A DNA stretch of 64,000 nucleotides from NCBI GenBank assembly GCA_009914755.4, contig CP086569.2, positions 29,088,001-29,152,000 of the forward strand, read 5' to 3'. Positions 366 through 64,000 of this stretch are shown piece by piece. The position numbers and the translations under genes were made by a program. Each line of letters starts with the position of its first letter. The stretch's first letter is position 1. Source of the stretch: the human T2T-CHM13v2.0 reference genome, Homo sapiens. Under the pieces are notes generated by a model. It was not told the origin of the DNA. It was given only the letters and a program-made list of their open reading frames with translations, and searched no databases.

Positions 366-378
366 TTCCAGAACATTC
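366..378. promoter_or_regulatory. Perfect HSE trimer TTCcaGAAcaTTC, recurring once per HOR. Function is speculative.
   Basis: The string 'cacttccagaacattcc' is present at this phase in essentially every unit, for example near 3919 and 7473. Confidence 0.2.
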
Positions 379-2632: not shown

Positions 2633-2645
2633 TTCAAGAATGTTC
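2633..2645. promoter_or_regulatory. Perfect HSE trimer TTCaaGAAtgTTC, recurring once per HOR. Function is speculative.
   Basis: The string 'cattcaagaatgttccattcc' recurs, and some units carry the variant 'caagaaagttcc', which still fits TTCnnGAAnnTTC. Confidence 0.2.
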
Positions 2646-32768: not shown

Positions 32769-35700
32769 GGCCTGTCCATTACACTACATTCCCTTCCATT
32801 CCAATGAATTCCATTGCATTCCAATCCATTCATTTCCTTTCGCTTGCATTCCATTCTATTCTCTTCTACTGCATACAATTTCACTCCATTCGTTCCCATT
32901 CCATTCAATTCCATTCCATTCAATTCCATTCCATTTGTTTCCATTCTCTTCGATTCCATTTCTTTATATTCCATGCCATTCGATTCCATTCTATTGGATT
33001 GCATTACATTCGTGTTCATCCCATTCCAGACCATTCCATTTGACTCCATTCCTTTCGAGCCCTTTCAATTTGAGTCCATTCCTTTCCAGTCCATTTCACT
33101 CCAGTCCATTACTATCCATTCCATACCATTCCATCCCATTCCATTCCATTCCATTCCATTCCATTGCATTCCATTCCATTCCATTCCATTCCACAGCACT
33201 CCATTCCATTACATTCTACTCTATCTGAGTCGATTTTATTGCATTAGATTCTATTCCATTGGATTACTTTCCATTCGATTACATTTCATTCATGTACATT
33301 CCATTCCAGTCAATTACATTCGAGTTCATTACATTACATTCCAGTATATTCCATTGTATTCGATCCCATTCCTTTCAATTCCATTTCATTCGACTCCATT
33401 ATATTCGATTCCATTCCACTCGAATCCATTCCATTAGAGGACATTCCATTCCAATGCATTCCATTCCATTCCATAGCATTCCATTGCATTCGATTCCATT
33501 CCATTTGATGCCATTCCATTTGATGCCATTCCATGACATTCCATTCCATTCGAGTCAATTCCGTTCCAATTCATTCCATTCCGTTTCATGAAATTCGAGT
33601 CCTTTCCAGTACATTTCATTCCAATCCCATCCAATCCAATCTACTCCATTCAATTCCTTTCCATTCCATTTGATTATATTCCATTGATTTGATTCCATTC
33701 AGTTTGATTCCATTCCGTGAAATTTCCTTCCATTTTCTTCCATTGCATTACTTTCCATTCAATTCCATTCCATTTCATTTCAGTCCATTCGCTTCCTTTC
33801 ATTTCGATTCAATTCCATTTGATTCCACTCCATTCTATGCGATTTCATTCCAATCGATTCAATTCCATTCGATGACATTCCTTTCGTTTCCATTCCATTC
33901 GAGTCCATTCAATTTGAGCATTCGTGTCCATTCTATTCGAGTCCATTCCATTACCGTCTATTCTATTCCCTTCCATTCCTGTTGATTCAATTTCATTCCC
34001 TTCCATTCGATTCCTTTCCATTCGATTCCATTCCTTTCCATTTAATTCCATTCGTTCCCATTCCATGTGATTTCATTCCATTCCAGTCCATTATATTCGA
34101 GTCCACTCCACTCCATTCTATTACATTCAATTCCTTTTGATTCCGTTCCATAACACTCCATTCATTTCGATTCCATTTCTTGCCAGTTTTCTTCCATTTT
34201 ATTCCATTCCGTTCGATTCCATTCCATTCGATTGCATACCATTCGAATCCTTTCCATTCCATTTCATTCCATTCCTTTCTATTCCATTCCATTTCATGCG
34301 ATTTGATTCCATTCTGTTCTATTCCATTCAATTCTTTTTCATTCCTTTCGCATCCTTTCTATTGCAGTCCATTACATTCGAGTCCATTCCAATCCCTTCC
34401 ATTCCATTCCATTACAGTCCATTCCAATAGATTCCATTCATTTGCCTTCCATTCGAATCCATTCCATTCTAGTCCATTCTATTTGAGTCAATTCCATTCC
34501 ATTCCATTCTATTCCTTTCCAATCCATTCGATTATATTCGATTCAATTCCATTTGATTCTTTCATTCTATTTTATTCCATGACATTTGATTGCATTGCAT
34601 TCCATTCCGTTTGATTCCAGTCCATTCAAGAAAGTTCCATTCCAGTCCATTGCTTTCCAGTCCATTCCATTCCACTCTAGTCTATTCCACTCCATTCCTT
34701 TCCATTGCATTCCATACTATTCCATTCCATTCCTTTGCATTCCGTTTCCAATCTATTCGAGTCCATTGCATTCCAGTCCAATCCATTCGATTACATTCCT
34801 TTTGATTCCCTGCCAGTCGATTGCATTGCATACTACACCATTCCAAAGGAGTCCATTCCATTCTATCTCAACACTTTCCATTCCACTCTGTTCGAGTCCA
34901 TTCCATTCCAGTCCATTTAATTCAAGGGCATTCCATTCCATTTCATATTATTCCATTCCATTCAATTCCATTCCAGATGATTCCATTCCATTCTATACCA
35001 TTGCTCTCTGTTCCATTCCATTCCATCTGTCTCCATTCCTTTCGTTTCGATTCCTTTCCATTCCATTCCATTCCATTTGATCCTATTTTATTAAATTGCA
35101 TTCTATTCGAGTGATTTCCATTCGAGTCCTTTCCATTCGATTCCATTCCATTCTATTCCATTCCTTTGGATTCCATTCCATTCCGTTCCGTTCACATCAC
35201 TTCTTTGCGATTCCATTACATTCGATTTCTTGCCATTCGATTCCATTCCTTTTGACTCCATTTCATTCGATTCCATTCCATTCCATTAATTTCCATTCCA
35301 TTCGAGACCTTTCCATTGCAGTCTTTTCCCTTCGAGTCCATTCCGTTCGATTCCCTTCCATTCGATTCCATTCCATTGGAGTCCGTACCAGTCGAGTCCA
35401 TTCTATTCCAGTCCATTAGTTTCGACTCCATTGCATTCGAGTGCATTCCATTCCGTGGCTGTCCATTCCATTCCGTTTGATGCCATTCCATACGATTCCA
35501 TTCAATTCGAGACCATTCTATTCCTGTCCATTCCTTGTGGTTCGATTCCATTTCACTCTAGTCCATTCCATTCCATTCAATTCCATTCGACTCTATTCCG
35601 TTCCATTCAATTCCATTCCATTCGATTCCATTTTTGTCGAGAACCTTCCATTACACTCCCTTCCATTCCAGTGCATTCCATTCCAGTCTCTTCAGTTCGA

Positions 35701-36300
35701 TTCCATTCCATTCGTTTTGATTCCTTTCCATTCCAGCCCATTCCATTCGATTCCATTCCTTTCCTTTCCGTTTCATTAGATTCCATTGCATTCGATTCCA
35801 TTCAATTCAATTCCGTGCTATTCAATTTGATTCATTTCCATTTAATTCCATTCCATTAGATTCCATTCCGTTCGATTCCATTCCTTTCGAATCCATTCCA
35901 TTGGAGTCCATTCACTTCCAGAACATTCCATTCCAGTAGAATCCATTCGAGTACATTCCATTAAAGTTCATTACATTCTAATACATTCCATTCCATTGCA
36001 TTCCATTCCATTCCATTCGATGCCATTCGATTCCATTCCATGCCAAATCATTGCATTCCTTTCCATTCCGTTCCTATCAAATCCATTCCATTCGATTTAG
36101 TTCGATTCTATTCACTTCCATTCCATTCGACTCCATTCCATTGGAGTCAATTCCTTTCGACACCCAGCCTTTCCAGTCAGTGTTTTTGGATTCCATTTTT
36201 TTGCATTCCATTACATTCTATGACATTCGATTCCGTTTCATTGCATTCCATTCCATACATTTTTATTCCATTCGAGACCGTAGCATTCCACTTTATTCCA
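32769..36300 (+). repeat. HSat3 HOR unit 10 (3532 bp). Subtype B.
   Basis: GGCC at 32769 and 36301. It is shortened by small deletions: 5 bp near 34040, 2 bp near 34556 and 10 bp near 34921. Confidence 0.9.
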
Positions 36301-39300
36301 GGCCTGTCCATTACACTACATTCCCTTCCATTCCAATGAATTCCATTCCATTCCAATCCATTCCTTTCCTTTCGCTTGCATTCCATTCTATTCTCTTCTA
36401 CTGCATACAATTTCACTCCATTTCTTCCCATTCCATTCAATTCCATTCCATTCAATTCCATTCCATTTGTTTCCATTCTCTTCGATTCCATTTCTTTATA
36501 TTCCATGCCATTCGATTCCATTCTATTGGATTGCATTACATTCGTGTTCATTCCATTCCAGACCATTCCATTTGACTCCATTCTTTTCGAGCCCTTTCAA
36601 TTTGAGTCCATTCCTTTCCAGTCCATTTCACTCCAGTCCATTACTATCCATTCCATACCATTCCATCCCATTCCATTCCATTCCATTCCATTCCATTCCA
36701 TTGCATTCCATTCCATTCCATTCCATTGCACTGCACTGCACTCCATTCCATTACATTCTACTCTATCTGAGTCGATTTTATTGCATTAGATTCTATTCCA
36801 TTGGATTAATTTCCATTCGATTACATTCCATTCATCTACATTCCATTCCAGTCAATTACATTCGAGTTCATTACATTACATTCCAGTATATTCCATTGTA
36901 TTCGATCCCATTCCTTTCAATTCCATTTCATTCGACTCCTTTATATTCGATTCCATTCCACTCGAATTCATTCAATTAGAGGACATTCCATTCCAATGCA
37001 TTCCATTCCATTCCATAGCATCCCATTGCATTCGATTCCATTCCATTTGATGCCATTCCATTTGATGCCATTCCATGACATTCCATTCCATTCGAGTCCA
37101 TTCCGTTCCAATTCATTCCATTCCGTTTCATGAAATTCGAGTACTTTCCAGTACATTTCATTCCAATCCCATCCAATCCAATCTACTCCGTTCAATTCCT
37201 TTCCATTCCATTTGATTATATTCCATTGATTTGATTCCATTCAGTTTGATTCCATTCCGTGAAATTTCGTTCCATTCTATTCCATTGCATTACTTTCCAT
37301 TCAATTCCATTCCATTTCATTTCAGTCCATTCGCTTCCTTTCCTTTCGATTCAATTCCATTTGATTCCACTCCATTCTATGCGATTTCATTCCAGTCGCT
37401 TCAATTCCATTCGATGACATTCCTTTCGTTTCCATTCCATTCGAGTCCATTCAATTTGAGCATTCGTGTCCATTCTATTCGAGTCCATTCCATTACCGTC
37501 TATTCTATTCCCTTCCATTCCTGTTGATTCAATTTCATTCCCTTCCATTCGATTCCTTTCCATTCGATTCCATTCCTTTCCATTCCATTCCATTCGTTCC
37601 CATTCCATGTGATTTCATTCCATTCCAGTCCATTATATTCGAGTCCACTCCACTCCATTCTATTACATTCAATTCCTTTTGAGTCCGTTACATAACACTC
37701 CATTCATTTCGATTCCATTTCTTGCCAGTTTTCTTCCATTTTATTCCATTCCGTTCGATTCCATTCCATTCGATTGCATTCCATTCGAATCCTTTCCATT
37801 CCATTTCATTCCATTCCTTTCTATTCCATTCCATTTCATTCGATTTGATTCCATTCTGTTCTATTCCATTCAATTCTTTTTCATTCCATTCGAATCCTTT
37901 CTATTGCAGTCCATTCCATTCGAGTCCATTCCAATCCCTTCCATTCCATTCCATTACAGTCCATTCCAATAGATTCCATTCCTTTGCCTTCCATTCGAAT
38001 CCATTCCATTCTAGTCCATTCCATTTGAGTCAATTCCATTCCATTCCATTCTATTCCTTTCCAATCCATTCGATTCCTTTCGATTCAATTGCATTTGATT
38101 CTCTTTCATTCTGTTTTATTCCATGCCATTTGATTGCATTGCATTCCATTCCGTTTGATTCCAGTCCATTCAAGAAAGTTCCATTCCAGTCCATTGCTTT
38201 CGAGTCTATTCCATTCCACTCTAGTCTATTCCAATCCATTCCTTTCCATTCCATTCCATACTATTCCATACTATTCCTTTGCATTCCGTTTCCAATCTAT
38301 TCGAGTCCAGTACATTCCAGTCCAATCCATTCGATTACATTCCTTTTGATTCCCTGCCAGTCGATTGCATTGCATACTAGACCATTCCAAAGGAGTCCAT
38401 TCCATTCTATCTCAACACTTTCCATTCCACTCTGTTCGAGTCCATTCCATTCCAGTCCATTTAATTCAAGGGCATTCCATTCCATTCCATTCCATTTCAT
38501 ATTATTCCATTCCATTCAATTCCATTCCAGATGATTCCATTCCATTCTATACCATTGCTCTCTGTTCCATTCCATTACATCTGTCTCCATTCCTTTCGTT
38601 TCGATTCCTTTCCATTCCATTCCATTCCATTTGATCCTATTTTATTAAATTGCATTCTATTCGAGTGATTTCCATTCGAGTCCTTTCCATTCGATTCCAT
38701 TCCATTCTATTCCATTCCTTTGGATTCCATTCCATTCCGTTCCGTTCACATCAATTCCTTGCGATTCCATTACATTCGATTTCTTGCCATTCGATTCCAT
38801 TCCTTTTGACTCCATTTCATTCGATTCCATTCCATTCCATTAATTTCCATTCCATTCGAGACCTTTCCATTGCAGTCTTTTCCCTTCGAGTCCATTCCGT
38901 TCGATTCCCTTCCATTCGATTCCATTCCATTGGAGTCCGTACCAGTCGAGTCCATTCTATTCCAGTCCATTAGTTTCGACTCCATTGCATTCGAGTGCAT
39001 TCCATTCCGTGGCTGTCCATTCCATTCCGTTTGATGCCATTCCATACGATTCCATTCAATTCGAGACCATTCTATTCCTGTCCATTCCTTGTGGTTCGAT
39101 TCCATTTCACTCTAGTCCATTCCATTCCATTCAATTCCATTCGACTCTATTCCGTTCCATTCAATTCTATTCCATTCGATTCCATTTTTTTCGAGAATCT
39201 TCCATTACACTCCCTTCCATTCCATTGCATTCCATTCCAGTCTCTTCAGTTCGATTCCATTCCATTCGTTTTGATTCCTTTCCATTCCAGCCCATTCCAT

Positions 39301-39854
39301 TCCATTCCATTCCTTTCCTTTCCGTTTCATTAGATTCCATTGCATTCGATTCCATTCAATTCAATTCCGTGCTATTCAATTTGATTCATTTCCATTTAAT
39401 TCCATTCCATTAGATTCCATTCCGTTCGATTCCATTCCTTTCGAATCCATTCCATTGGAGTCCATTCACTTCCAGAACATTCCATTCCAGTAGAATCCAT
39501 TCGAGTACATTCCATTAAAGTTCATTACATTCTAATACATTCCATTCCATTGCATTCCATTCCATTCCATTCGATGCCATTCGATTCCATTCCATGCCAA
39601 ATCATTGCATTCCTTTCCATTCCGTTCCTATCAAATCCATTCCATTCGATTTAGTTCGATTCTATTCACTTCCATTCCATTCGATTCCATTCCGTTGGAG
39701 TCAATTCCTTTCGACACCCAGCCTTTCCAGTCAGTGTTTTTGGATTCCATTTTTTTGCATTCCATTACATTCTATGACATTCGATTCCGTTTCATTGCAT
39801 TCCCTTCCATACATTTTTATTCCATTCGAGACCGTAGCATTCCACTTTATTCCA
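36301..39854 (+). repeat. HSat3 HOR unit 11 (3554 bp). Subtype B.
   Basis: GGCC at 36301 and 39855. Units 10-11 share local variants around 36.0-40.1 kb ('ctatcaaatcc' and 'cagtgtttttgg'). Confidence 0.9.
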
Positions 39855-42800
39855 GGCCTGTCCATTACACTACATTCCCTTCCATTCCAATGAATTCCAT
39901 TCCATTCCAATCCATTCCTTTCCTTTCGCTTGCATTCCATTCTATTCTCTTCTACTGCATACAATTTCACTCCATTCCTTCCCATTCCATTCAATTCCAT
40001 TCCATTCAATTCCATTCCATTTATTTCCATTCTCTTCGATTCCATTTCTTTATATTCCATGCCATTCGATTCCATTCTATTGGATTGCGTTACATTCGTG
40101 TTCATTCCATTCCAGACCATTCCATTTGACTCCATTCCTTTCGAGCCCTTTCAATTTGAGTCCATTCCTTTCCAGTCCATTTCACTCCAGTCCATTACTA
40201 TCCATTCCATACCATTCCATCCCATTCCGTTCCATTATATTCCATTCCATTCCATTCCATTGCATTCCATTCCATTCCATTCCATTGCACTGCACTCCAT
40301 TCCATTACATTCTACTCTATCTGAGTCGATTTTATTGCATTAGATTCTATTCCATTGGATTACTTTCCATTCGATTACATTCCATTCATGTACATTCCAT
40401 TCCAGTCAATTACATTCGAGTTCATTACCTTACATTCCAGTATATTCCATTGTATTCGATCCCATTCCTTTCAATTCCATTTCATTCGACTCCATTATAT
40501 TCGATTCCATTCCACTCGAATCCATTCCATTAGAGGACATTCCATTCCAATGCATTCCATTCCATTCCATAGCATTCCATTGCATTCGATTCCATTCCAT
40601 TTGATGCCATTCCATTTGATGCCATTCCATGACATTCCATTCCATTCGAGTCCATTCCGTTCCAATTCATTCCATTCCGTTTCATGAAATTCGAGACCTT
40701 TCCAGTACATTTCATTCCAATCAGATCCAATCCAATCTACTCCATTCAATTCCTTTCCATTCCATTTGATTATATTCCATTGATTTGATTCCATTCAGTT
40801 TGATTCCATTCCGTGATATTTCGTTTCTTTCTATTCCATTGCATTACTTTCCATTCAATTCCATTCCATTTCATTTCAGTCCATTCGCTTCCTTTCCTTT
40901 CGATTCAATTCCATTTGATTCCACTCCATTCTATGCGATTTCATTCCAATCGATTCAATTCCATTCGATGACATTCCTTTCGTTTCCATTCCATTCGAGT
41001 CCATTCAATTTGAGCATTCGTGTCCATTCTATTCGAGTCCATTCCATTACCGTCTATTCTATTCCCTTCCATTCCTGTTGATTCAATTTCATTCCCTTCC
41101 ATTCGATTCCTTTCCATTCGATTCCATTCCTTTCCATTCCATTCCATTCGTTCCCATTCCATGTGATTTCATTCCATTCCAGTCCATTATATTCGAGTCC
41201 ACTCCACTCCATTCTATTACATTCAATTCCTTTTGAGTCCGTTCCATAACACTCCATTCATTTCGATTCCATTTCTTGCCAGTTTTCTTCCATTTTATTC
41301 CATTCCGTTCGATTCCATTCCATTCGATTGCATTCCATTCGAATCCTTTCCATTCCATTTCATTCCATTCCTTTCTATTCCATTCCATTTCATTCGATTT
41401 GATTCCATTCTGTTCTATTCCATTCAATTCTTTTTCATTCCATTCGAATCCTTTCTATTGCAGTCCATTCCATTCGAGTCCATTCCAATCCCTTCCATTG
41501 CATTACATTACAGTCCATTCTAATAGATTCCATTCGTTTGCCTTCCATTTGAATCCATTCCATTCTAGTCCATTCCATTTGAGTCAATTCCATTCCATTC
41601 CATTCTATTCCTTTCCAATCATTTGATTCCATTCGATTCAATTCCATTTGATTCTCTTTCATTGTATTTTATTCCATGCCATTTGATTGCATTGCATTCC
41701 ATTCCGTTTGATTCCAGTCCATTCAAGAAAGTTCCGTTCCAGTCCATTGCTTTCGAGTCCATTCCATTCCACTCTAGTCTATTCCACTCCATTCCTTTCC
41801 ATTCCATTCCATACTATTCCATTCCATTCCTTTGCATTCCGTTTCCAATCTATTCGAGTCCATTGCATTCCAGTCCAATCCATTCGATTACATTCCTTTT
41901 GATTCCCTGCCAGTTGACTGCATTGCATACTAGACCATTCCAAAGGAGTCCATTCCATTCTATCTCAACACTTTCCATTCCACTCTGTTTGAGTCCATTC
42001 CATTCCAGTCCATTTAATTCAAGGGCATTCCATTCCATTCCATTCCATTTCATATTATTCCATTCCATTCAATTCCATTCCAGATGATTCCATTCCATTC
42101 TATACCATTGCTCTCTCTTCCATTCCATTCCATCTGTCTCCATTCCTTTCGTTTCGATTCCTTTCCATTCCATTCCATTCCATTTGATCCTATTTTATTA
42201 AATTGCATTCTATTCGAGTGATTTCCATTCGAGTCCTTTCCATTCGATTCCATTCCATTCTATTCCATTCCTTTGGATTCCATTCCATTCCGTTCCGTTC
42301 ACATCAATTCCTTGCGATTCCATTACATTCGATTTCTTGCCATTCGATTCCATTCCTTTTGACTCCATTTCATTCGATTCCATTCCATTCCATTAATTTC
42401 CATTCCATTCGAGACCTTTCCATTGCAGTCTTTTCCCTTCGAGTCCATTCCGTTCGATTCCCTTCCATTCGATTCCATTCCATTGGAGTCCGTACCAGTC
42501 GAGTCCATTCTATTCCAGTCCATTAGTTTCGACTCCATTGCATTCGAGTGCATTCCATTCCGTGGCTGTCCATTCCATTCCCTTTGATGCCATTCTATAC
42601 GATTCCATTCAATTCGAGACCATTCTATTCCTGTCCATTCCTTGTGGTTCGATTCCATTTCACTCTAGTCCATTCCATTCCATTCAATTCCATTCGACTC
42701 TATTCCGTTCCATTCAATTCCATTCCATTCGATTCCATGTTTTTCGAGAACTTTCCATTACACTCCCTTCCATTCCAGTGCATTCCATTCCTGTCTCTTC

Positions 42801-43407
42801 AGTTCGATTCCATTCCATTCGTTTCGATTCCTTTCCATTCCAGCCCATTCCTTTCCATTCCATTCCTTTCCTTTCCGTTTCATTAGATTCCATTGCATTC
42901 GATTCCATTCAATTCAATTCCGTGCTATTCAATTTGATTCATTTCCATTTAATTCCATTCCATTAGATTCCATTCCGTACGATTCCATTCCTTTTGAATC
43001 CATTCCGTTGGATTCCATTCACTTCCAGAACATTCCATTACAGTCGAATCCATTCGAGTACATTCCATTAAAGTTCATTACATTCTAATACATTCCATTC
43101 CATTGCATTCCATTCCATTCCATTCGATGCCATTCGATTCCATTCCATGCCAAATCATTGCATTCCTTTCCATTCCGTTCCTATCAATTCCATTCAATTC
43201 GATTTAGTTCGATTCTATTCACTTCCATTCCATTCGATTCCATTCCATTGGAGTCAATTCCTTTCGACACCCAGCCTTTCCAGTCAATGATTTTGGATTC
43301 CATTTTTTTGCATTCCATTACATTCTATGACATTCGATTCCGTTTCATTGCATTCCATTCCATACATTTTTATTCCATTCGAGACCGTAGCATTCCACTT
43401 TATTCCA
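39855..43407 (+). repeat. HSat3 HOR unit 12 (3553 bp). Subtype B.
   Basis: GGCC at 39855 and 43408. Confidence 0.9.
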
Positions 43408-46241
43408 GGCCTGTCCATTACACTACATTCCCTTCCATTCCAATGAATTCCATTCCATTCCAATCCATTCCTTTCCTTTCGCTTGCATTCCATTCTATTC
43501 TCTTCTATTGCATACAATTTCACTCCATTCGTTCCCATTCAATTCAATTCCATTCCATTCAATTCCATTCCATTTGTTTCCATTCTCTTCGATTCCACTT
43601 CTTTATATTCCATGCCATTCGATTCCATTCTATTGGATTGCATTACATTCGTGTTCATTCCATTCCAGACCATTCCATTTGACTCCATTCCTTTCGAGCC
43701 CTTTCAATTTGAGTCCATTTCATTTCAGTCCATTCGCTTCCTTTCCTTTCGATTCAATTCCATTTGATTCCACTCCATTCTATGCGATTTCATTCCAATC
43801 GATTCAATTCCATTCGATGACATTCCTTTCGTTTCCATTCCATTCGATTCCATTCAATTTGCGCATTCGTGTCCATTCTATTCGAGTCCATTCCATTACC
43901 GTCTATTCTATTCCCTTCCATTCCTGTTGATTCAATTTCATTCCCTTCCATTCGATTCCTTTCCATTCGATTCCATTCCTTTCCATTCCATTCCATTCGT
44001 TCCCATTCCATGTGATTTCATTCCATTCCAGTCCATTATATTCGAGTCCACTCCACTCCATTCTATTACATTCAATTCCTTTTGAGTCCGTTCCATAACA
44101 CTCCATTCATTTCGATTCCATTTCTTGCCAGTTTTCTTCCATTTTATTCCATTCCGTTCGATTCCATTCCATTCGATTGCATTCCATTCGAATCCTTTCC
44201 ATTCCATTTCATTCCATTCCTTTCTATTCCATTCCATTTCATTCGATTTGATTCCATTCTGTTCTATTCCATTCAATTCTTTTTCATTCCATTCGAATCC
44301 TTTCTATTGCAGTCCATTCCATTCGAGTCCATTCCAATCCCTTCCATTCCATTCCATTACAGTCCATTCCAATAGATTCCATTCCTTTGCCTTCCATTCG
44401 AATCCATTCCATTCTAGTCCATTCCATTTGAGTCAATTCCATTCCATTCCATTCTATTCCTTTCCAATCCATTCGATTCCATTCGATTCAATTCCATTTG
44501 ATTCTCTTTCATTCTATTTTATTCCATGCCATTTGATTGCATTGCATTCCATTCCGTTTGATTCCAGTCCATTCAAGAAAGTTCCATTCCAGTCCATTGC
44601 TTTCCAGTCCATTCCATTCCACTCTAGTCTATTCCACTCCATTCCTTTCCATTCCATTCCATACTATTCCATTCCATTCCTTTGCATTCCGTTTCCAATC
44701 TATTCGAGTCCATTGCATTCCAGTCCAATCCATTCGATTACATTCCTTTTGATTCCCTGCCAGTCGATTGTATTGCATACTACACCATTCCAAAGGAGTC
44801 CATTCCATTCTATCTCAACACTTTCCATTCCACTCTGTTCGAGTCCATTCCATTCCAGTCCATTTAATTCAAGGGCATTCCATTCCATTCCATTCCATTT
44901 CATATTATTCCATTCCATTCAATTCCATTCCAGATGATTCCATTCCATTCTATACCATTGCTCTCTGTTCCATTCCATTCCATCTGTCTCCATTCCTTTC
45001 GTTTCGATTCCTTTCCATTCCATTCCATTACATTTGATCCTATTTTATTAAATTGCATTCTATTCGAGTGATTTCCATTCGAGTCCTTTCCTTTCGATTC
45101 CATTCCTTTGGATTCCATTCCATTCCGTTCCGTTCACATCAATTCCTTGCGATTCCATTACATTCGATTTCTTGCATTCGATTCCATTCCCTTTGACTCC
45201 ATTTCATTCGATTCCATTCCATTCCATTAATTTCCATTCCATTCGAGACCTTTCCATTGCAGTCTTTTCCCTTCGAGTCCATTCCGTTCGATTCCCTTCC
45301 ATTCGATTCCATTCCATTGGAGTCCGTACCAGTCGAGTCCATTCTATTCCAGTCCATTAGTTTCGACTCCATTGCATTCGAGTGCATTCCATTCCGTGGC
45401 TGTCCATTCCATTCCGTTTCATGCCATTCCATACGATTCCATTCAATTCGAGACCATTCTATTCCTGTCCATTCCTTGTGGTTCGATTCCATTTCACTCT
45501 AGTCCATTCCATTCCATTCAATTCCATTCGACTCTATTCCGTTCCATTCAATTCCATTCCATTCGATTCCATTTTTGTCGAGAACCTTCCATTACACTCC
45601 CTTCCATTCCAGTGCATTCCATTCCAGTCTCTTCAGTTCGATTCCATTCCATTCATTTCGATTCCTTTCCATTCCAGCCCATTCCATTCCATTCCATTCC
45701 TTTCCTTACCGTTTCATTAGATTCCATTGCATTCGATTCCATTCAATTCAATTCCGTGCTATTCAATTTGATTCATTTCCATTTAATTCCATTCCATTAG
45801 GTTCCATTCCGTTCGATTCCATTGCTTTCGAATCCATTCCATTGGAGTCCATTCACTTCCAGAACATTCCATTACAGTCGAATCCATTCGAGTACATTCC
45901 ATTAATGTTCATTACATTCTAATACATTCCATTCCATTGCATTCCATTCCATTCCATTCGATGCCATTCGATTCCATCCCATGCCAAATCATTGCATTCC
46001 TTTCCATTCCGTTCCTATCAATTCCATTCCTTTCGATATAGTTCGATTCTATTCACTTCCATTCCATTCGATTCCATTCCATTGGAGTCAATTCCTTTCG
46101 ACACCCAGCCTTTCCAGTCAATGATTTTGGAGTCCATTTTTTTGCATTCCATTACATTCTATGACATTCGATTCCGTTTCATTGCATTCCATTCCATACA
46201 TTTTTATTCCATTCGAGACTGTAACATTGCACTTTATTCCA
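43408..46241 (+). repeat. HSat3 HOR unit 13, a truncated 2834-bp unit carrying an internal ~719-bp deletion
   Basis: GGCC at 43408 and 46242. At 43711-43730, 'gagtccatt|tcatttcagtcc' joins sequence that in other units lies ~719 bp apart. In unit 2 the corresponding positions are 4615 and 5335. This unit is also an A/B hybrid in the 15-bp-insertion region: the insertion is absent but the B-type 'ccgttccgttcac' is present. Confidence 0.85.
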
Positions 46242-49200
46242 GGCCTGTCCATTACACTACATTCCCTTCCATTCCAATGAATTCCATTCCATTCCTATCC
46301 ATTCCTTCCTTTCGCTTTCATTCCATTCTATTCTCTTCTACTGCATACAATTTCACTCCATTCATTCCCATTCCATTCAATTCCATTCCATTCAATTCCA
46401 TTCCATTTGTTTCCATTCTCTTCGATTCCATTTCTTTATATTCCATGCCATTCGATTCCATTCTATTGGATTGCATTACATTCGTGTTCATTCCATTCCA
46501 GACCATTCCATTTGACTCCATTCCTTTCGAGCCCTTTCAATTTGACTCCATTCCTTTCCAGTCCATTTCACTCCAGTCCATTACTATCCATTCCATACCA
46601 TTCCATCCCATTCCATTCCGTTCCATTACATTCCATTCCATTGAATTCCATTCCATTCCATTCCATTGCACTGCACTCCATTCCATTACATTCTATTCTA
46701 TTTGAGTCGATTTTATTGCATTAGATTCTATTCCATTGGATTACTTTCCATTCGATTACATTCCATTCATGTACATTCCATTCCAGTCAATTACATTCGA
46801 GTTCATTTCGTTACATTCCTGTATATTCCATTGTATTTGATCCCATTCCTTTCAATTCGATTTCATTCGACTCCATTATATTCGATTCCATTCCACTCGA
46901 ATCCATTCCATTAGAGGACATTCCATTCCAATGCATTCCATTCCATTCCATAGCATTCCATTGCATTCGATTCCATTCCATTTGATGCCATTCCATTTGA
47001 TGCCATTCCATGACATTCCATTCCATTCGAGTCCATTCCGTTCCAATTCATTCCATTCCGTTTCATGAAATTCGAGTCCTTTCCAGTACATTTCATTCCA
47101 ATCCCATCCAATCCAATCTACTCCATTCAATTCCTTTCCATTCCACTTGATTAGATTCCATTGATTTGATTCCATTCAGTTTGATTCCATTCCGTGAAAT
47201 TTCGTTCCATTGTATTCCATTGCGTTACTTTCCATTCAATTCCATTCCATTTCATTTCAGTCCATTCGTTTCCTTTCCTTTCGATTCAATTCCATTTGAT
47301 TCCACTCCATTCTATGCGATTTCATTCCAATCGATTCAATTCCATTCGATGACATTCCTTTCGTTTCCATTCCATTCGAGTCCATTCAATTTGAGCATTC
47401 GTGTCCATTCTATTCGAGTCCATTCCATTACCGTCTATTCTATTCCCTTCCATTCCTGTTGATTCAATTTCATTCCCTTCCATTCGATTCCTTTCCATTC
47501 GATTCCATTCCTTTCCATTCCATTCCATTCGTTCCCATTCCATGTGATTTCATTCCATTCCAGTCCATTATATTCGAGTCCACTCCACTCCATTCTATTA
47601 CATTCAATTCCTTTTGAGTCCGTTCCATAACACTCCATTCATTTCGATTCCATTTCTTGCCAGTTTTCTTCCATTTTATTCCATTCCGTTCGATTCCATT
47701 CCATTCGATTGCATTCCATTCGAATCCTTTCCATTCCATTTCATTCCATTCCTTTCTATTCCATTCCATTTCATTCGATTTGATTCCATTCTGTTCAATT
47801 CCATTCAATTCTTTTTCATTCCATTCGAATCCTTTCTATTTCAGTCCATTCCATTCGAGTCCATTCCAATCCCTTCCATTCCATTCCATTACTGTCCATT
47901 CCAATAGATTCCATTCCTTTGCCTTCCATTCGAATCCATTCCATTCTAGTCCATTCCATTTGAGTCAATTCCATTCCATTCCATTCTATTCCTTTCCAAA
48001 CCATTCGATTCCATTCGATTCAATTCCATTTGATTCTCTTTCATTCTATTTTATTCCATGCCATTTGATTGCATTGCATTCCATTCCGTTTGATTCCAGT
48101 ACATTCAAGAAAGTTCCATTCCAGTCCATTGCTTTCGAGTCCATTCCATTCCACTCTAGTCTATTCCACTCCATTCCTTTCCATTCCATTCCATACTATT
48201 CCATTCCATTCCTTTGCATTCCGTTTCCAATCTATTCGAGTCCATTGCATTCCAGTCCAATCCATTCGATTACATTCCTTTTGATTCCCTGCCAGTCGAT
48301 TGCATTGCATACTAGACCATTCCAAAGGAGTCCATTCCATTCTATCTCAACACTTTCCATTCCACTCTGTTCGAGTCCATTCCATTCCAGTCCATTTAAT
48401 TCAAGGGCATTCCATTCCAATCCATTCCATTTCATATTATTCCGTTCCATTCAATTCCATTCCAGATGATTCCATTCCATTCTATACCATTGCTCTCTGT
48501 TCCATTCCATTCCATCTGCCTCCATTCCTTTCGTTTCGATTCCTTTCCATTCCATTCCATTCCATTTGATCCTATTTTATTAAATTGCATTCTATTCGAG
48601 TCATTTCCATTCGAGTCCTTTCCATTAGATTCCATTCCATTCTATTCCATTCCTTTGGATTCTATTCCATTCCGTTCCGTTCACATCCATTCCTTGCGAT
48701 TCCATTACATTCGATTTCTTGCCATTCGATTCCATTCCTTTTGACTCCATTTCATTCGATTCCATTCCATTCCATTAATTTCCATTCCATTCGAGACCTT
48801 TCCATTGCAGTCTTTTCCCTTCGAGTCCATTCCGTTCGATTCCCTTCCATTCGATTCCATTCCATTGGAGTCCGTACCAGTCGAGTCCATTCTATTCCAG
48901 TCCATTAGTTTCCACTCCATTGCATTCGAGTGCATTCCATTCCGTGGCTGTCCATTCCATTCCGTTTGATGCCATTCCATACGATTCCATTCAATTCGAG
49001 ACCATTCTATTCCTGTCCATTCCTTGTGCTTCGATTCCATTTCACTCTAGTCCATTCCATTCCATTCAATTCCATTCGACTCTATTCCGTTCCATTCCAT
49101 TCCATTCCATTCGATTCCATTTTTTTGGAGAACCTTCCAGTACACTCCCTTCCATTCCAGTGCATTCCATTCCAGTCTCTTCAGTTCGATTCCATTCCAT

Positions 49201-49789
49201 TCGTTTCGATTCCTTTCCATTCCAGCCCATTCCATTCCATTCCATTCCTTTCTTTTCCGTTTCTTTAGATTCTATTGCATTCGATTCCATTCAATTCAAT
49301 TCCGTGCTATTCAATTTGATTCATTTCCATTTAATTCCATTCCATTAGATTCCATTCCGTTCGATTCCATTCCTTTCGAATCCATTCCATTGGATTCCAT
49401 TCACTTCCAGAACATTCCATTCCAGTCGAATCCATTCGAGGACATTCCATTAAAGTTCATTACATTCTAATACATTCCATTCCATTGCATTCCATTCCAT
49501 TCCATTCGATGCCATTCGATTCCATTCCATGCCAAATCATTGCATTCCTTTCCATTCCGTTCCTATCAATTCCATTCCATTCGATTTAGTTCGATTCTAT
49601 TCACTTCCATTCCATTCGATTCCATTCCATTGGAGTCAATTCCTTTGGACACCCAGCCTTTCCAGTCAATGTTTTTGGATTCCATTTTTTTGCATTCCAT
49701 TACATTCTATGACATTCGATTCCGTTTCATTGCATTCCATTCCATACATTTTTATTCCATTCGAGACCGTAGCATTCCACTTTATTCCA
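46242..49789 (+). repeat. HSat3 HOR unit 14 (3548 bp). Subtype B.
   Basis: GGCC at 46242 and 49790. Confidence 0.9.
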
Positions 49790-52700
49790 GGCCTGTCCAT
49801 TACACTACATTCCCTTCCATTCCAGTGAATTCCATTCCATTCCAATCCATTCCTTTCCTTTCGCTTGCATTCCATTCTATTCTCTTCTACTGCATACAAT
49901 TTCACTCCATTCGTTCCCGTTCCATTCAATTCCATTCCGTTTGTTTCCATTCTCTTCGATTCCATTTCTTTATATTCCATGCCATTCGATTCCATTCTAT
50001 TGGATTGCATTACATAAGTGTTCATTCCATTCCAGACCATTCCATTTGACTCCATTCCTTTCGAGCCCTTTCAATTTGAGTCCATTCCTTTCCAGTCCAT
50101 TTCACTCCAGTCCATTACTATCCATTCCATACCATTCCATCCGATTCCATTGCATTCCATTCCATTCCATTCCATTCCATTGCACTGCACTCCATTCCAT
50201 TACATTCTACTCTATCTGAGTCGATTTTATTGCATTAGATTCTATTCCATTGGATTACTTTCCATTCGATTACATTCCATTCATGTACATTCCATTCCAG
50301 TCAATTACATTCGAGTTCATTACGTTACATTCCAGTATATTCCATTCTATTCGATCCCATTCCTTTCAATTCTATTTCATACGACTCCATTATATTCGAT
50401 TCCATTCCACTCGAATCCATTCCATTAGAGGACATTCCATTCCAATGCATTCCATTCCATTCCATAGCATTCCATTGCATTCGATTCCATTCCATTTGAT
50501 GCCATTCCATTTGATGCCATTCCATGACATTCCATTCCATTCGAGTCCATTCCGTTCCAATTCATTCCATTCCGTTTCATGAAATTCGAGTCCTTTCCAG
50601 TACATTTCATTCCAATCCCATCCAATCCAATCTACTCCATTCAATTCCTTTCCATTCCATTTGATTTGATTCCATTCAGTTTGATTCCATTCCGTGAAAT
50701 TTCGTTCCATTCTATTCCATTGCATTACTTTCCATTCAATTCCATTCCATTTCATTTCAGTCCATTCGCTTCCTTTCCTTTCGATTCAATTCCATTTGAT
50801 TCCACTCCATTCTATGCGATTTCATTCCAATCGATTCAATTCCATTCGATGACGTTCCTTTCGTTTCCATTCCATTCGAGTCCATTGAATTTGAGCATTC
50901 GTGTCCATTCTATTCGAGTCCATTCCATTACCGTCTATTCTATTCCCTTCCATTCCTGTTGATTCAATTTCATTCCCTTCCATTCGATTCCTTTCCATTC
51001 GATTCCATTCCTTTCCATTCCATTCCATTCGTTCCCATTCCATGTGATTTCATTCCATTCCAGTCCATTATATTCGAGTCCACTCCACTCCATTCTATTA
51101 CATTCAATTCCTTTTGAGTCCGTTCCATAACACTCCATTCATTTCGATTCCATTTCTTGCCAGTTTTCTTCCATTTTATTCCATTCCGTTCGATTCCATT
51201 CCATTCGATTGCATTCCATTCGAATCCTTTCCATTCCATTTCATTCCATTCCTTTCTATTCCATTCCATTTCATTCGATTTGATTCCATTCTGTTCTATT
51301 CCATTCAATTCTTTTTCATTCCATTCGAATCCTTTCTATTGCAGTCCATTCCATTCGAGTCCATTCCAATCCCTTCCATTCCATTCCATTACAGTCCATT
51401 CCAATAGATTCCATTCCTTTGTCTTCCATTCGAATCCATTCCATTCTAGTCCATTCCATTTGAGTCAATTCCATTCCATTCCATTCTATTCCTTTCCAAT
51501 CCATTCGATTCCATTCGATTCAATTCCATTTGATTCTCTTTCATTCTATTTTATTCCATGCCATTTGATTGCATTGCATTCCATTCCGTTTGATTCCAGT
51601 CCATTCAAGAAAGTTCCATTCCAGTCCATTGCTTTCCAGTCCATTCCATTCCACTCTAGTCTATTCCACTCCATTCCTTTCCATTCCATTCCATACTATT
51701 CCATTCCATTCCTTTGCATTCCGTTTCCAATCTATTCGAGTCCATTGCATTCCAGTCCAATCCATTCGATTACATTCCTTTTGATTCCCTGCCAGTCGAT
51801 TGTATTGCATACTAGACCATTCCAAAGGAGTCCATTCCATTCTATCTCAACACTTTCCATTCCACTCTGTTCGAGTCCATTCTATTCCAGTCCATTTAAT
51901 TCAAGGGCATACCATTCCATTCCATTCCATTTCATATTATTCCATTCCATTCAATTCCATTCCAGATGATTCCTTTCCATTCTCTACCATTGCTCTCTAT
52001 TCCATTCCATTCCATCTGTCTCCATTCCTTTCGTTTCGATTCCTTTCCATTCCATTCCATTCCATTTGATCCTATTTTATTAAATTGCATTCTATTCGAG
52101 TGATTTCCATTCGAGTCCTTTCCATTAGATTCCATTCCATTCTATTCCATTCCTTTGCATTCTATTCCATTCCGTTCCGTTCACATCCATTCCTTGCGAT
52201 TCCATTACATTCGATTTCTTGCCCTTCGATTCCATTCCTTTTGACTCCATTTCATTCGATTCCATTCCATTCCATTAATTTCCATTCCATTCGAGACCTT
52301 TCCATTGCAGTCTTTTCCCTTCGAGTCCATTCCGTTCGATTCCCTTCCATTCGATTCCATTCCATTGGAGTCCGTACCAGTCGAGTCCATTCTATTCCAG
52401 TCCATTAGTTTCCACTCCATTGCATTCGAGTGCATTCCATTCCGTGGCTGTCCATTCCATTCCGTTTGATGCCATTCCATACGATTCCATTCAATTCGAG
52501 ACCATTCTATTCCTGTCCATTCCTTGTGGTTCGATTCCATTTCACTCTAGTCCATTCCATTCCATTCAATTCCATTCGACTCTATTCTGTTCCATTCCAT
52601 TCCATTCCATTCGATTCCATTTTTTTCGAGAACCTTCCAGTACACTCCCTTCCATTCCAGTGCATTCCATTCCAGTCTCTTCAGTTCGATTCCATTCCAT

Positions 52701-53289
52701 TCGTTTCGATTCCTTTCCATTCCAGCCCATTCCGTTCCATTCCATTCCTTTCCTTTCCGTTTCTTTAGATTCCATTGCATTCGATTCCATTCAATTCAAT
52801 TCCGTGCTATTCAATTTGATTCATTTCCATTTAATTCCATTCCATTAGATTCCATTCCGTTCGATTCCATTCCTTTCGAATCCATTCCATTGGATTCCAT
52901 TCACTTCCAGAACATTCCATTCCAGTCGAATCCATTCGAGTACATTCCATTAAAGTTCATTACATTCTAATACATTCCATTCCATTGCATTCCATTCCAT
53001 TCCATTCGATGCCATTCGATTCCATTCCATGCCAAATCATTGCATTCCTTTCCATTCCGTTCCTATCAATTCCATTCCATTCGATTTAGTTCGATTCTAT
53101 TCACTTCCATTCCATTCGATTCCATTCCATTGGAGTCAATTCCTTTGGACACCCAGCCTTTCCAGTCAATGTTTTTGGATTCCATTTTTTTGCATTCCAT
53201 TACATTCTATGACATTCGATTCCGTTTCATTGCATTCCATTCCATACATTTTTATTCCATTCGAGACCGTAGCATTCCACTTTATTCCA
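49790..53289 (+). repeat. HSat3 HOR unit 15 (3500 bp), belonging to the short distal haplotype
   Basis: GGCC at 49790 and 53290. There are 15-bp deletions near 49941 and near 50650 ('ttgattatattccattgatttgatt' becomes 'ttgatttgatt'). It shares variants with units 14-17 ('caatgtttttgg', 'cataagtg' and the 74-aa minus-strand ORF variant). Confidence 0.9.
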
Positions 53290-56200
53290 GGCCTGTCCAT
53301 TACACTACATTCCCTTCCATTCCAATGAATTCCATTCCATTCCAATCCATTCCTTTCCTTTCGCTTGCATTCCATTCTATTCTCTTCTACTGCATACAAT
53401 TTCACTCCATTCGTTCCCGTTCCATTCAATTCCATTCCATTCAATTCCATTCCGTTTGTTTCCATTCTCTTCGATTCCATTTCTTTATATTCCATGCCAT
53501 TCGATTCCATTCTATTGGATTGCATTACATAAGTGTTCATTCCATTCCAGACCATTCCATTTGACTCCATTCCTTTCGAGCCCTTTCAATTTGAGTCCCT
53601 TCCTTTCCAGTCCATTTCACTCCAGTCCATTACTATCCATTCCATACCATTCCATCCGATTCCATTGCATTCCATTCCATTCCATTCCATTCCATTGCAC
53701 TGCACTCCATTCCATTACATTCTACTCTATCTGAGTCGATTTTATTGCATTAGATTCTATTCCATTGGATTACTTTCCATTCGATTACATTCCATTCATG
53801 TACATTCCATTCCAGTCAATTACATTCGAGTTCATTACGTTACATTCCAGTATATTCCATTCTATTCGATCCCATTCCTTTCAATTCTATTTCATTCGAC
53901 TCCATTATATTCGATTCCATTCCACTCGAATCCATTCCATTAGAGGACATTCCATTCCAATGCATTCCATTCCATTCCATAGCATTCCATTGCATTCGAT
54001 TCCATTCCATTTGATGCCATTCCATTTGATGCCATTCCATGACATTCCATTCCATTCGAGTCCATTCCGTTCCAATTCATTCCATTCCGTTTCATGAAAT
54101 TCGAGTCCTTTCCAGTACATTTCATTCCAATCCCATCCAATCCAATCTACTCCATTCAATTCCTTTCCATTTCATTTGATTTGATTCCATTCAGTTTGAT
54201 TCCATTCCGTGAAATTTCGTTCCATTCTATTCCATTGCATTACTTTCCATTCAATTCCATTCCATTTCATTTCAGTCCATTCGCTTCCTTTCCTTTCGAT
54301 TCAATTCCATTTGATTCCACTCCATTCTATGCGATTTCATTCCAATCGATTCAATTCCATTCGATGACATTCCTTTCGTTTCCATTCCATTCGAGTCCAT
54401 TCAATTTGAGCATTCGTGTCCATTCTATTCGAGTCCATTCCATTACCGTCTATTCTATTCCCTTCCATTCCTGTTGATTCAATTTCATTCCCTTCCATTC
54501 GATTCCTTTCCATTCGATTCCATTCCTTTCCATTCCATTCCATTCGTTCCCATTCCATGTGATTTCATTCCTTTACAGTCCATTATATTCGAGTCCACTC
54601 CACTCCATTCTATTACATTCAATTCCTTTTGAGTCCGTTCCATAACACTCCATTCATTTCGATTCCATTTCTTGCCAGTTTTCTTCCATTTTATTCCATT
54701 CCGTTCGATTCCATTCCATTCGATTGCATTCCATTCGAATCCTTTCCATTCCATTTCATTCCATTCCTTTCTATTCCATTCCATTTCATTCGATTTGATT
54801 CCATTCTGTTCTATTCCATTCAATTCTTTTTCATTCCATTCGAATCCTTTCTATTGCAGTCCATTCCATTCGAGTCCATTCCAATCCCTTCCATTCCATT
54901 CCATTACAGTCCATTCCAATAGATTCCATTCCTTTGTCTTCCATTCGAATCCATTCCATTCTAGTCCATTCCATTTGAGTCAATTCCATTCCATTCCATT
55001 CTATTCCTTTCCAATCCATTCGATTCCATTCGATTCAATTCCATTTGATTCTCTTTCATTCTATTTTATTCCATGCCATTTGATTGCATTGCATTCCATT
55101 CCGTTTGATTCCAGTCCATTCAAGAAAGTTCCATTCCAGTCCATTGCTTTCCAGTCCATTCCATTCCACTCTAGTCTATTCCACTCCATTCCTTTCCATT
55201 CCATTCCATACTATTCCATTCCATTCCTTTGCATTCCGTTTCCAATCTATTCGAGTCCATTGCATTCCAGTCCAATCCATTCGATTACATTCCTTTTGAT
55301 TCCCTGCCAGTCGATTGCATTGCATACTACACCATTCCAAAGGAGTCCATTCCATTCTATCTCAACACTTTCCATTCCACTCTGTTCGAGTCCATTCCAT
55401 TCCAGTCCATTTAATTCAAGGGCATACCATTCCATTCCATTCCATTTCATATTATTCCATTCCATTCAATTCCATTCCAGATGATTCCTTTCCATTCTCT
55501 ACCATTGCTCTCTATTCCATTCCATTCCATCTGTCTCCATTCCTTTCGTTTCGATTCCTTTCCATTCCATTCCATTCCATTTGATCCTATTTTATTAAAT
55601 TGCATTCTATTCGAGTGATTTCCATTCGAGTCCTTTCCATTAGATTCCATTCCATTCTATTCCATTCCTTTGGATTCTATTCCATTCCGTTCAGTTCACA
55701 TCCATTCCTTGCGATTCCATTACATTCGATTTCTTGCCATTCGATTCCATTCCTTTCGACTCCATTTCATTCGATTCCATTCCATTCCATTAATTTCCAT
55801 TCCATTCGAGACCTTTCCATTGCAGTCTTTTCCCTTCGAGTCCATTCCGTTCGATTCCCTTCCATTCGATTCCATTCCATTGGAGTCCGTACCAGTCGAG
55901 TCCATTCTATTCCAGTCCATTAGTTTCCACTCCATTGCATTCGAGTGCATTCCATTCCGTGGCTGTCCATTCCATTCCGTTTGATGCCATTCCATACGAT
56001 TCCATTCAATTCGAGACCATTCTATTCCTGTCCATTCCTTGTGGTTCGATTCCATTTCACTCTAGTCCATTCCATTCCATTCAATTCCATTCGACTCTAT
56101 TCTCTTCCATTCCATTCCATTCCATTCGATTCCATTTTTTTCGAGAACCTTCCTGTACACTCCCTTCCATTCCAGTGCATTCCATTCCAGTCTCTTCAGT

Positions 56201-56804
56201 TCGATTCCATTCCATTCGTTTCGATTCCTTTCCATTCCAGCCCATTCCATTCCATTCCATTCCTTTCCTTTCCGTTTCTTTAGATTCCATCGCATTCGAT
56301 TCCATTCAATTCAATTCCGTGCTATTCAATTTGATTCATTTCCATTTAATTCCATTCCATTAGATTCCATTCCGTTCGATTCCATTCCTTTCGAATCCAT
56401 TCCATTGGATTCCATTCACTTCCAGAACATTCCATTCCAGTCGAATCCATTCGAGTACATTCCATTAAAGTTCATTACATTCTAATACATTCCATTCCAT
56501 TGCATTCCATTCCATTCCATTCGATGCCATTCGATTCCATTCCATGCCAAATCATTGCATTCCTTTCCATTCCGTTCCTATCAATTCCATTCCATTCGAT
56601 TTAGTTCGATTCTATTCACTTCCATTCCATTCGATTCCATTCCATTGGAGTCAATTCCTTTGGACACCCAGCCTTTCCAGTCAATGTTTTTGGATTCCAT
56701 TTTTTTGCATTCCATTACATTCTATGACATTCGATTCCGTTTCATTGCATTCCATTCCATACATTTTTATTCCATTCGAGACCGTAGCATTCCACTTTAT
56801 TCCA
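53290..56804 (+). repeat. HSat3 HOR unit 16 (3515 bp), distal haplotype
   Basis: GGCC at 53290 and 56805. Confidence 0.9.
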
Positions 56805-63888: not shown

Positions 63889-64000
63889 TTACACTACATT
63901 CCCTTCCATTCCAATGAATTCCATTCCATTCCAATCCATTCCTTTCCTTTCGCTTGCATTCCATTCTATTCTCTTCTACTGCATACAATTTCACTCCATT
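63889..64000 (+). repeat. Partial HOR unit, 5' portion only
   Basis: It is in phase with positions 751-862 of unit 1, so the array continues past the end of the window. Confidence 0.85.

What the first reader, a model, noticed from the sequence alone, without database searches (positions are those of the whole stretch)
43690..43740. One HOR copy carries a ~719-bp internal deletion, giving a 2834-bp unit
Unit 13 (43408-46241) is 2834 bp, against 3500-3574 bp for all others. The sequence 'caatttgagtccatt' joins directly to 'tcatttcagtccattcgcttcc' at 43714-43719. In neighbouring units these two strings lie 719 bp apart; in unit 2 they are at 4615 and 5335. The missing segment includes the variable pure (CCATT)n tract and the 'ctgagtcgattttattgcattagattctattccattggattac' landmark. 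The junction sits in a 6-bp 'tccatt' microhomology. That fits unequal exchange or replication slippage between pentamers in different registers of the same unit. The artefactual ORF at 43508..43930 is a fusion across this junction.
Basis: seen in the sequence. Interest (0 to 1): 0.5.

Follow-up and report, generated by a model that had tools for sequence, protein, structure and literature searches.

The report
Deleted repeat unit in Y-chromosome satellite
One copy of the well-known 3.56-kb human Y-chromosome satellite repeat (DYZ1) has lost about 700 bp in a single clean deletion, which is an ordinary structural variant of a very unstable repeat array and not a new kind of element.

Summary
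The window contains 18 complete tandem units of a (CCATT)n-derived satellite with one HaeIII site per unit. Seventeen units are 3500-3574 bp. Unit 13 (43410-46243) is 2834 bp. Multiple and pairwise alignments put the shortfall in one gap, joined at TCCATT (43714-43719). The size needs correcting. The gap is 704 bp against unit 12, 699 bp against unit 14 and 719 bp against unit 2, because the lost segment includes a length-variable (CCATT)n tract. The array is human Yq12 DYZ1 (HSat3A6). Unit length, HaeIII periodicity and seven published DYZ1 primers all fit, and contaminant contigs from human-associated metagenomes are 96-99% identical. The two parental sites share exactly 6 bp and 24 of 30 bp around the junction, but only background similarity beyond that. 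This favours microhomology-guided end joining or template switching over classical unequal homologous exchange. The tools cannot separate these mechanisms. The junction 30-mer occurs once in the window and never in three public collections, while the intact parent occurs in 42 external loci. I found no sign that the variant recurs. Assembly error cannot be excluded without reads, but it looks unlikely. This is an ordinary variant of low interest.

The parts
43410..46243 (+). Short DYZ1 unit (unit 13), 2834 bp, from HaeIII site to HaeIII site
   Evidence: It is 98.1-98.6% identical to units 12, 14 and 2 over 2833-2834 aligned bases.
43714..43719 (+). Deletion junction: TCCATT, 6 bp of exact microhomology shared by both parental breakpoints
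   Evidence: Alignment places the gap anywhere within these 6 bases.
43705..43734 (+). Junction 30-mer CAATTTGAGTCCATT|TCATTTCAGTCCATT. It is unique in the window and differs by exactly 3 mismatches from each parental site.
   Evidence: It has 0 exact matches in metagenome, genome and viral contig collections.
40167..40870 (+). The equivalent intact segment in neighbouring unit 12 (704 bp). It shows what unit 13 lost, including the variable (CCATT)n tract, the 43-bp landmark and DYZ1 primer sites B and E.
43508..43930 (+). Artefactual 140-aa open frame spanning the junction
   Evidence: It is not on record as an exact product. The protein search gave only 3 low-complexity partial hits without Pfam domains, and none crosses the junction.
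753..63880 (+). Surrounding array of 18 complete DYZ1 units with one HaeIII site per unit

Best explanation
The window is a stretch of the human Y-chromosome long-arm heterochromatin satellite DYZ1 (HSat3A6). Unit 13 is a DYZ1 unit that lost about 700 bp (699-719 bp) in one event. Two in-phase pentamer sites roughly 700 bp apart in the same unit share TCCATT exactly and 24 of 30 bases around it. They were joined and the intervening satellite was discarded. The most likely route is repair of a double-strand break by microhomology-mediated end joining or short-homology single-strand annealing. Template switching during replication is a close alternative. The deletion has no functional consequence that the sequence shows. 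It is a neutral structural variant of a non-coding repeat. Shown here: the identity of the array, the single junction, the microhomology, the lack of long homology, and the uniqueness of the junction in the window. Inferred: the repair pathway, and that the assembly is correct at this point.
For: Array identity: units are 3500-3574 bp with one GGCC per unit. Two units are exactly 3569 bp, the modal HaeIII fragment reported for DYZ1. DYZ1 is described as about 3.5-3.6 kb of pentameric HSat3. Seven published DYZ1 primers map in the published order, orientation and unit positions. Forty-two contaminant contigs from metagenomes, including human gut, and from bacterial isolates match unit 12, and most are 96-99% identical to it. 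Single event: there is one 724-column gap in the MSA and one 699-719 bp gap in each pairwise alignment. Derived state: 17 of 17 other units, all external copies that span the site and the published 3564-bp unit carry the segment. Microhomology: it is exactly 6 bp. Only 5% of random breakpoint pairs in this sequence reach 6 bp (0.8% when weighted per event), 1.1% reach 24/30, and 0.7% reach both. No long homology: identity is 62-64% over +/-25 to +/-100 bp, and about 11-12% of random offset pairs do at least as well over +/-25 and +/-50 bp. Pentamer phase is preserved across the junction. Against a chimera of neighbouring units: unit 13 carries 16 private substitutions on both sides of the junction, and the longest exact in-register match between the parental contexts is 9 bp. 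That is far too short for an overlap-based assembler to jump across.
Against: No reads are available, so a consensus or assembly error is not excluded. A 6-bp match of the commonest hexamer in this satellite arises by chance at about 5% of random breakpoint pairs, so the microhomology is suggestive but not compelling. About 69,000 breakpoint and size combinations per unit are at least as good, so nothing marks this site as special. The sequence alone cannot separate end joining, annealing, replication template switching and homeologous sister-chromatid exchange.
Confidence: 0.8

Rival explanations
1. Unequal (out-of-register) homologous exchange took place between sister chromatids or within one chromatid, misaligned by about 700 bp. 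It produced this deleted unit and a reciprocal unit with a 700-bp duplication.
For: Yq12 evolves by unequal exchange, and sister-chromatid exchanges are seen there in about 15% of Strand-seq libraries (Rhie et al.). The two sites are in the same pentamer phase and share 24/30 bases.
Against: Homology at the offset alignment is only 62-64% beyond +/-15 bp, the same as background, and the longest exact match is 9 bp. From general knowledge, this is far below what mammalian homologous recombination normally needs. No unit in the window is longer than 3574 bp, so no reciprocal product is present here.
Confidence: 0.12
2. The deletion is an assembly or consensus artefact. The true sequence has a full-length unit here.
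For: Yq12 is among the hardest regions of the genome to assemble, and population Y assemblies flag errors there. The junction was found nowhere else.
Against: Collapses in tandem arrays normally remove whole units at long, near-identical overlaps. This junction joins two non-homologous positions inside one unit that share only 6 bp exactly. Unit 13 has 16 private substitutions spread on both sides of the junction, so it is a distinct copy. The rest of the unit aligns base for base with its neighbours.
Confidence: 0.07
3. The 2.83-kb unit belongs to a separate, established repeat family, such as the 2.7-kbp DYZ18/DYZ1 hybrid repeat described next to Yq12, and is not a deleted DYZ1 unit.
For: Hallast et al. 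describe a 2.7-kbp repeat that is 77% DYZ1-like, and its size is similar.
Against: All 2834 bp align to ordinary DYZ1 units at 98.1-98.6% identity and there is no foreign (DYZ18-like) segment. It is a single unit inside a normal DYZ1 array, not an array of its own.
Confidence: 0.01

Closest known systems
DYZ1 / HSat3A6, the 3.56-kb HaeIII repeat of human Yq12
   Same: It has the same pentamer (CCATT/TTCCA) basis, the same unit length (3500-3574 bp, including two units of exactly 3569 bp) and a single HaeIII site per unit. Published primers fall at the published positions. Units are about 98-99% identical, as reported.
   Different: Nothing differs for the array as a whole. Unit 13 alone lacks unit positions about 311-1014, which include primer sites B and E.
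Small indel polymorphism inside DYZ1 units (PMC3925983: 5-35 bp gains and losses, hot spot at positions 390-427)
   Same: The same hot spot is seen here: the (CCATT)n tract at alignment columns 382-426 varies in 5-bp steps between units. It is the same class of variation, repeat-internal length change.
   Different: The unit-13 deletion is 20-100 times larger. It is not a change in pentamer copy number within a pure tract but a join between two different diverged positions.
Structural-variant higher-order repeat units in other human satellites (for example deleted or hybrid alpha-satellite HOR variants)
   Same: A single unit in an otherwise regular array lacks an internal block.
   Different: Alpha-satellite HOR variants usually arise by in-register exchange between 171-bp monomers that are 70-80% identical over their whole length. 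Here the join rests on 6 bp (24/30) with no longer homology.
2.7-kbp DYZ18/DYZ1 hybrid repeat (Hallast et al.)
   Same: It has a similar length and largely DYZ1-derived sequence.
   Different: That repeat carries 23% DYZ18-derived sequence and forms its own array proximal to Yq12. Unit 13 has no foreign sequence and is a singleton.

Membership tests
DYZ1 (HSat3A6) of human Yq12 | Tandem unit of about 3.5-3.6 kb released by HaeIII (one GGCC per unit) | tested here: met
   There are 18 GGCC sites at 3500-3574-bp spacing, with two exceptions: unit 13, and one lost site at 60320.
DYZ1 (HSat3A6) of human Yq12 | Built from diverged copies of the pentamer CCATT / TTCCA | tested here: met
   TRF finds a period-5-multiple array over 12..63971. 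In the sampled 704 bp, 44 of 141 pentamer slots are exact CCATT.
DYZ1 (HSat3A6) of human Yq12 | Sequence match to published DYZ1 (primer sites in the right order and at the right positions) | tested here: met
   Primers A-G of PMC3925983 Table 5 match with 0-2 mismatches at unit positions within about 30 bp of those published. Primer H fails only because the window carries one extra C relative to the primer. The classical 154-bp sexing primer pair, which I recalled from memory and could not find in the paper search, also matches exactly with 154-bp spacing.
DYZ1 (HSat3A6) of human Yq12 | Located on the human Y chromosome, in blocks that alternate with DYZ2 | not testable with these tools
   No human genome is available in the tools, and the window holds no DYZ2 boundary. 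There is indirect support only: contaminant contigs from human-associated samples are 96-99% identical.
Microhomology-mediated deletion (MMEJ or template switching) | Single junction with a short exact identity (2-20 bp) shared by both breakpoints and no inserted bases | tested here: met
   The junction has a 6-bp TCCATT, no filler and one gap.
Microhomology-mediated deletion (MMEJ or template switching) | No long homology that could support homologous recombination | tested here: met
   Identity is 62-64% over +/-25 to +/-100 bp, and about 11-12% of random offset pairs do at least as well.
Microhomology-mediated deletion (MMEJ or template switching) | Dependence on the pathway's enzymes (Pol theta and others), or a replication origin of the event | not testable with these tools
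   This would need experimental or pedigree data.
Unequal homologous exchange product | A reciprocal duplication product exists | tested here: not met
   No unit in the window is longer than 3574 bp. This is not decisive, because the reciprocal product would sit on the other chromatid.

The most novel reading that the evidence does not exclude
The 2.83-kb unit could be more than a private one-off. It could be a lineage marker that has been copied to other DYZ1 blocks or is shared by a Y haplogroup. If so, its junction 30-mer would be a simple k-mer tag for tracing how blocks of Yq12 were duplicated and moved.
Probability: 0.1. Interest if true: 0.25.

Novelty: new member of a known kind. Interest (0 to 1): 0.1.

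Why it matters
It matters little. The finding documents one more structural variant in a satellite array already known to be highly unstable. Its practical uses are modest. The junction 30-mer (CAATTTGAGTCCATTTCATTTCAGTCCATT) is a unique tag that can anchor reads in an otherwise near-featureless array, so it can serve as an assembly check-point or a marker for block duplication. The junction also adds one data point suggesting that intra-unit rearrangements in HSat3 use very short homology rather than in-register exchange.

Tried and rejected
1. I scanned for the junction 30-mer in metagenome contigs, genome contigs and viral contigs and found 0 hits. I also found 0 hits for a 21-mer core in the 42 fetched loci. 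The positive control with the intact left parent gave 34 + 8 loci. Power is low, because most of these contigs are short-read consensus collapses that would never show a rare variant.

2. I tried protein-based routes to find the junction in other assemblies. Exact look-up of both junction-spanning ORFs found nothing on record. One homology search gave 3 low-complexity partial hits, and none crosses the junction. I did not pursue this further.

3. I searched papers for the classical DYZ1 sexing primers recalled from memory and found no paper. I used the primers printed in PMC3925983 instead.

4. I tested the idea of a 7.1-kb two-unit super-repeat, suggested by the exact landmark recurring in every second unit. 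I rejected it. Units 3, 5, 7, 9 and 11 do not share a common variant of the landmark (units 3 and 7 carry the same change, units 5, 9 and 11 each a different one), and lag-2 divergence (1.45%) is not below lag-1 (1.29%).

5. I tested whether the breakpoints lie in a longer internal sub-repeat of the unit, which would be a substrate for homologous exchange. I rejected this, since similarity falls to background beyond +/-15 bp.

6. I tried to infer the ancestry of the left and right parts of unit 13. The left part has only 310 columns and 3-8 differences, too few to decide.

7. An Rfam scan of 39-48 kb found nothing.

Full report
**What the window is.** Tandem Repeats Finder reports one array of period-5 multiples (consensus TCCATTCCATTCCAT) covering 12..63971. 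GC content is an even 38-40% with a strong C-over-G skew throughout. An anchor next to the only recurring GGCC (HaeIII) site divides the window into 18 complete units of 3553, 3554, 3574, 3553, 3544, 3548, 3554, 3569, 3569, 3532, 3554, 3553, 2834, 3548, 3500, 3515, 3515 and 3559 bp. Units differ from each other by 10-85 substitutions, or about 0.3-2.4%.

This matches the human Yq12 satellite DYZ1 (HSat3A6):
- DYZ1 is described as about 3.5-3.6 kb of pentameric HSat3 (Hallast et al. 10.1101/2022.12.01.518658; Rhie et al. 10.1101/2022.12.01.518724).
- Most copies are reported to be more than 98% identical.
- The modal HaeIII fragment is 3,569 bp, and two units here have exactly that length.
- Seven of the eight DYZ1 primers printed in PMC3925983 match the window with 0-2 mismatches. 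They fall in the published order and orientation, within about 30 bp of the published unit positions. The eighth fails only because the window carries one extra C relative to the primer.
- The 154-bp sexing primer pair I recalled from memory also matches exactly, but I could not find it in the paper library. I count it only as a lead.
- An intact 30-mer from the unit occurs in 34 metagenome contigs, one of which is labelled human gut, and in 8 contigs of 'bacterial' genome assemblies. Most are 96-99% identical to unit 12 over up to the full 3553 bp. This is the human-Y satellite contamination that Rhie et al. describe.

Chromosomal location cannot be tested with these tools.

**Checking the observation.** Unit 13 (43410-46243) is 2834 bp, 35 standard deviations below the mean of the others. 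In a MAFFT alignment of all 18 units it has one contiguous 724-column gap (columns 311-1034). Its only other gaps are 5, 15 and 1 columns elsewhere, and the first two are shared with other units. Independent pairwise global alignments give a single large gap of 704 bp against unit 12 (40161-40864, equivalently 40167-40870), 699 bp against unit 14 and 719 bp against unit 2. The remaining 2833-2834 bases are 98.1-98.6% identical.

CAATTTGAGTCCATT ends at 43719 and TCATTTCAGTCCATTCGCTTCC begins at 43720. The figure of 719 bp needs qualifying. It holds against unit 2, but the immediate neighbours give 704 and 699 bp, because the lost segment includes the (CCATT)n tract whose length varies between units (columns 382-426). 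The 719-bp length difference between units 12 and 13 is 704 + 15 + 1 - 1.

Unit 13 shares a 15-bp indel with units 1, 2, 5 and 6. It is also closest to units 6 and 1 rather than to its neighbours. Its ancestor may therefore have resembled unit 2, in which case about 719 bp would be the better estimate. I give the size as 699-719 bp.

**The junction.** The left parent reads ...CAATTTGAGTCCATT|CCTTTCCAGTCCATT... and the right parent reads ...CAATTCCATTCCATT|TCATTTCAGTCCATT.... The exact identity shared at the breakpoints is TCCATT, 6 bp, with a mismatch on either side. The junction 30-mer differs by exactly 3 mismatches from each parent, so the parents share 24 of 30 bases. Further out the offset alignment is 62-64% identical. 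About 11-12% of random offset pairs in this satellite do at least as well over +/-25 and +/-50 bp.

Against chance in this same sequence:
- 5% of random breakpoint pairs have at least 6 bp of microhomology, or 0.8% when each distinct event is counted once.
- 1.1% reach 24/30.
- 0.7% reach both, which still leaves about 69,000 equally good combinations per unit.

The junction is therefore better matched than a random pair, but the site is not special.

The lost segment is 4 mod 5 in length only because it contains the one 4-mer (GATT) that shifts the pentamer frame near its 3' end. Both breakpoints lie immediately after a CCATT, and the pentamer phase runs unbroken through the junction.

**What was lost.** The lost segment is 704 bp of ordinary diverged pentamers (37% GC, 15 CpG). 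It includes the variable pure CCATT tract, the 43-bp landmark, and DYZ1 primer sites B and E. Nothing in it or around it matches an Rfam family.

The ORF at 43508..43930 is real as an open frame of 140 aa with a TTG start. It is an artefact, because CCATT repeats have no stop codon in any frame. It has no exact record in the gene-position collection. The protein search returned only three partial low-complexity hits without Pfam domains.

**Direction of change and age.** All 17 other units, every external copy that spans the site and the published 3564-bp unit carry the segment. The short form is therefore derived. Unit 13 has 16 private substitutions outside the gap, 2 to the left and 14 to the right of the junction. 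That is within the range of the other units (2-19). It is an independent copy of ordinary age, and the deletion cannot be dated. No other unit in the window shares the deletion, so it has not spread locally.

**Mechanism.** This section is inference. Classical unequal homologous exchange needs a long, nearly identical alignment. At this roughly 700-bp offset there is none, and the longest in-register exact match is 9 bp. A join at a 6-bp identity within a 30-bp patch of 80% similarity, with no filler, is the usual signature of three processes: microhomology-mediated end joining, short-homology annealing after a double-strand break, or a replication template switch. I favour these processes together over homeologous sister-chromatid exchange (about 0.12), and I put assembly artefact at about 0.07. 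The 0.8 confidence I give the best explanation covers the overall reading, a real one-event microhomology deletion in a DYZ1 unit, and not the choice among repair pathways, which the sequence cannot make. Yq12 does show frequent sister-chromatid exchange and evolves by unequal exchange at the scale of whole units and blocks, so that rival is not negligible. The window holds no reciprocal longer unit, but such a product would lie on the other chromatid.

**Artefact?** No reads are available. Three observations argue against an artefact:
- Collapses in tandem arrays remove whole units at long identical overlaps, whereas this junction joins non-homologous positions inside one unit.
- The unit has private variants on both sides of the junction.
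- Everything else aligns base for base.

**Recurrence.** The junction 30-mer occurs once in the window. It does not occur in metagenome, genome or viral contig collections or in the 42 fetched DYZ1 loci. The intact parent gave 42 loci. This negative result is weak, because most of those contigs are consensus collapses of thousands of units.

**Comparison with what is known.** The array is DYZ1. Length variation inside DYZ1 units has been reported, but as 5-35-bp changes concentrated at positions 390-427 (PMC3925983). That is the same hot spot seen here. A 700-bp intra-unit deletion is larger and of a different type, but it belongs to the familiar class of structural-variant repeat units in satellite arrays. 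It is not the 2.7-kbp DYZ18/DYZ1 hybrid repeat of Hallast et al., because unit 13 has no foreign sequence.

**Verdict.** This is an individual instance of a known kind of variation in a known satellite, and its interest is low.

Noticed in passing
window 60320-60323: The HaeIII site at the unit 17/18 boundary is lost (GGCC to GGTC). A HaeIII digest would give a 7,074-bp dimer fragment here.
   Followed up: partly
each unit, positions about 380-430 (for example window 40235-40286 in unit 12); MSA columns 382-426: The pure (CCATT)n tract varies between units in 5-bp steps (5 to 45 bp). It coincides with the indel hot spot at 390-427 reported for DYZ1 in PMC3925983.
   Followed up: partly
window 49792-60321 (units 15-17): Three adjacent units share a 45-bp and a 14-bp deletion and differ by only 19-32 substitutions, so they form a locally homogenised block. 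Units 1 and 6, five units apart, differ by only 10 substitutions, which suggests a recent duplication or gene conversion.
   Followed up: partly
MSA columns 2417-2431 (for example window 42247-42261 in unit 12): A 15-bp indel is shared by the non-adjacent units 1, 2, 5, 6 and 13. Unit 13 is closest to units 6 and 1, not to its neighbours 12 and 14, so unit subtypes are interleaved along the array.
   Followed up: partly
window 1231, 4785, 11902, 19004, 26112, 33225, 40321: The exact 43-bp landmark recurs about every 7.1 kb across units 2-12, which looks like a two-unit super-repeat. It is a coincidence: units 3, 5, 7, 9 and 11 do not share a common variant of the landmark (units 3 and 7 carry the same change, units 5, 9 and 11 each a different one), and lag-2 divergence is not lower than lag-1.
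   Followed up: yes
loci L001-L042 (for example L035 Actinomadura cremea JCM 3308, L039 Streptomyces sp., L037 Legionella sp.): Human DYZ1 sequence sits in 34 metagenome contigs and in 8 contigs of deposited bacterial genome assemblies. Some contigs are about 3.6 kb long, consistent with collapsed single units. This is contamination of public records.
   Followed up: partly
whole window, both strands: Many open frames of 40-170 codons occur on both strands, for example 43158..43682 (174 aa). They arise because CCATT/AATGG repeats lack stop codons. They are not genes.
   Followed up: yes
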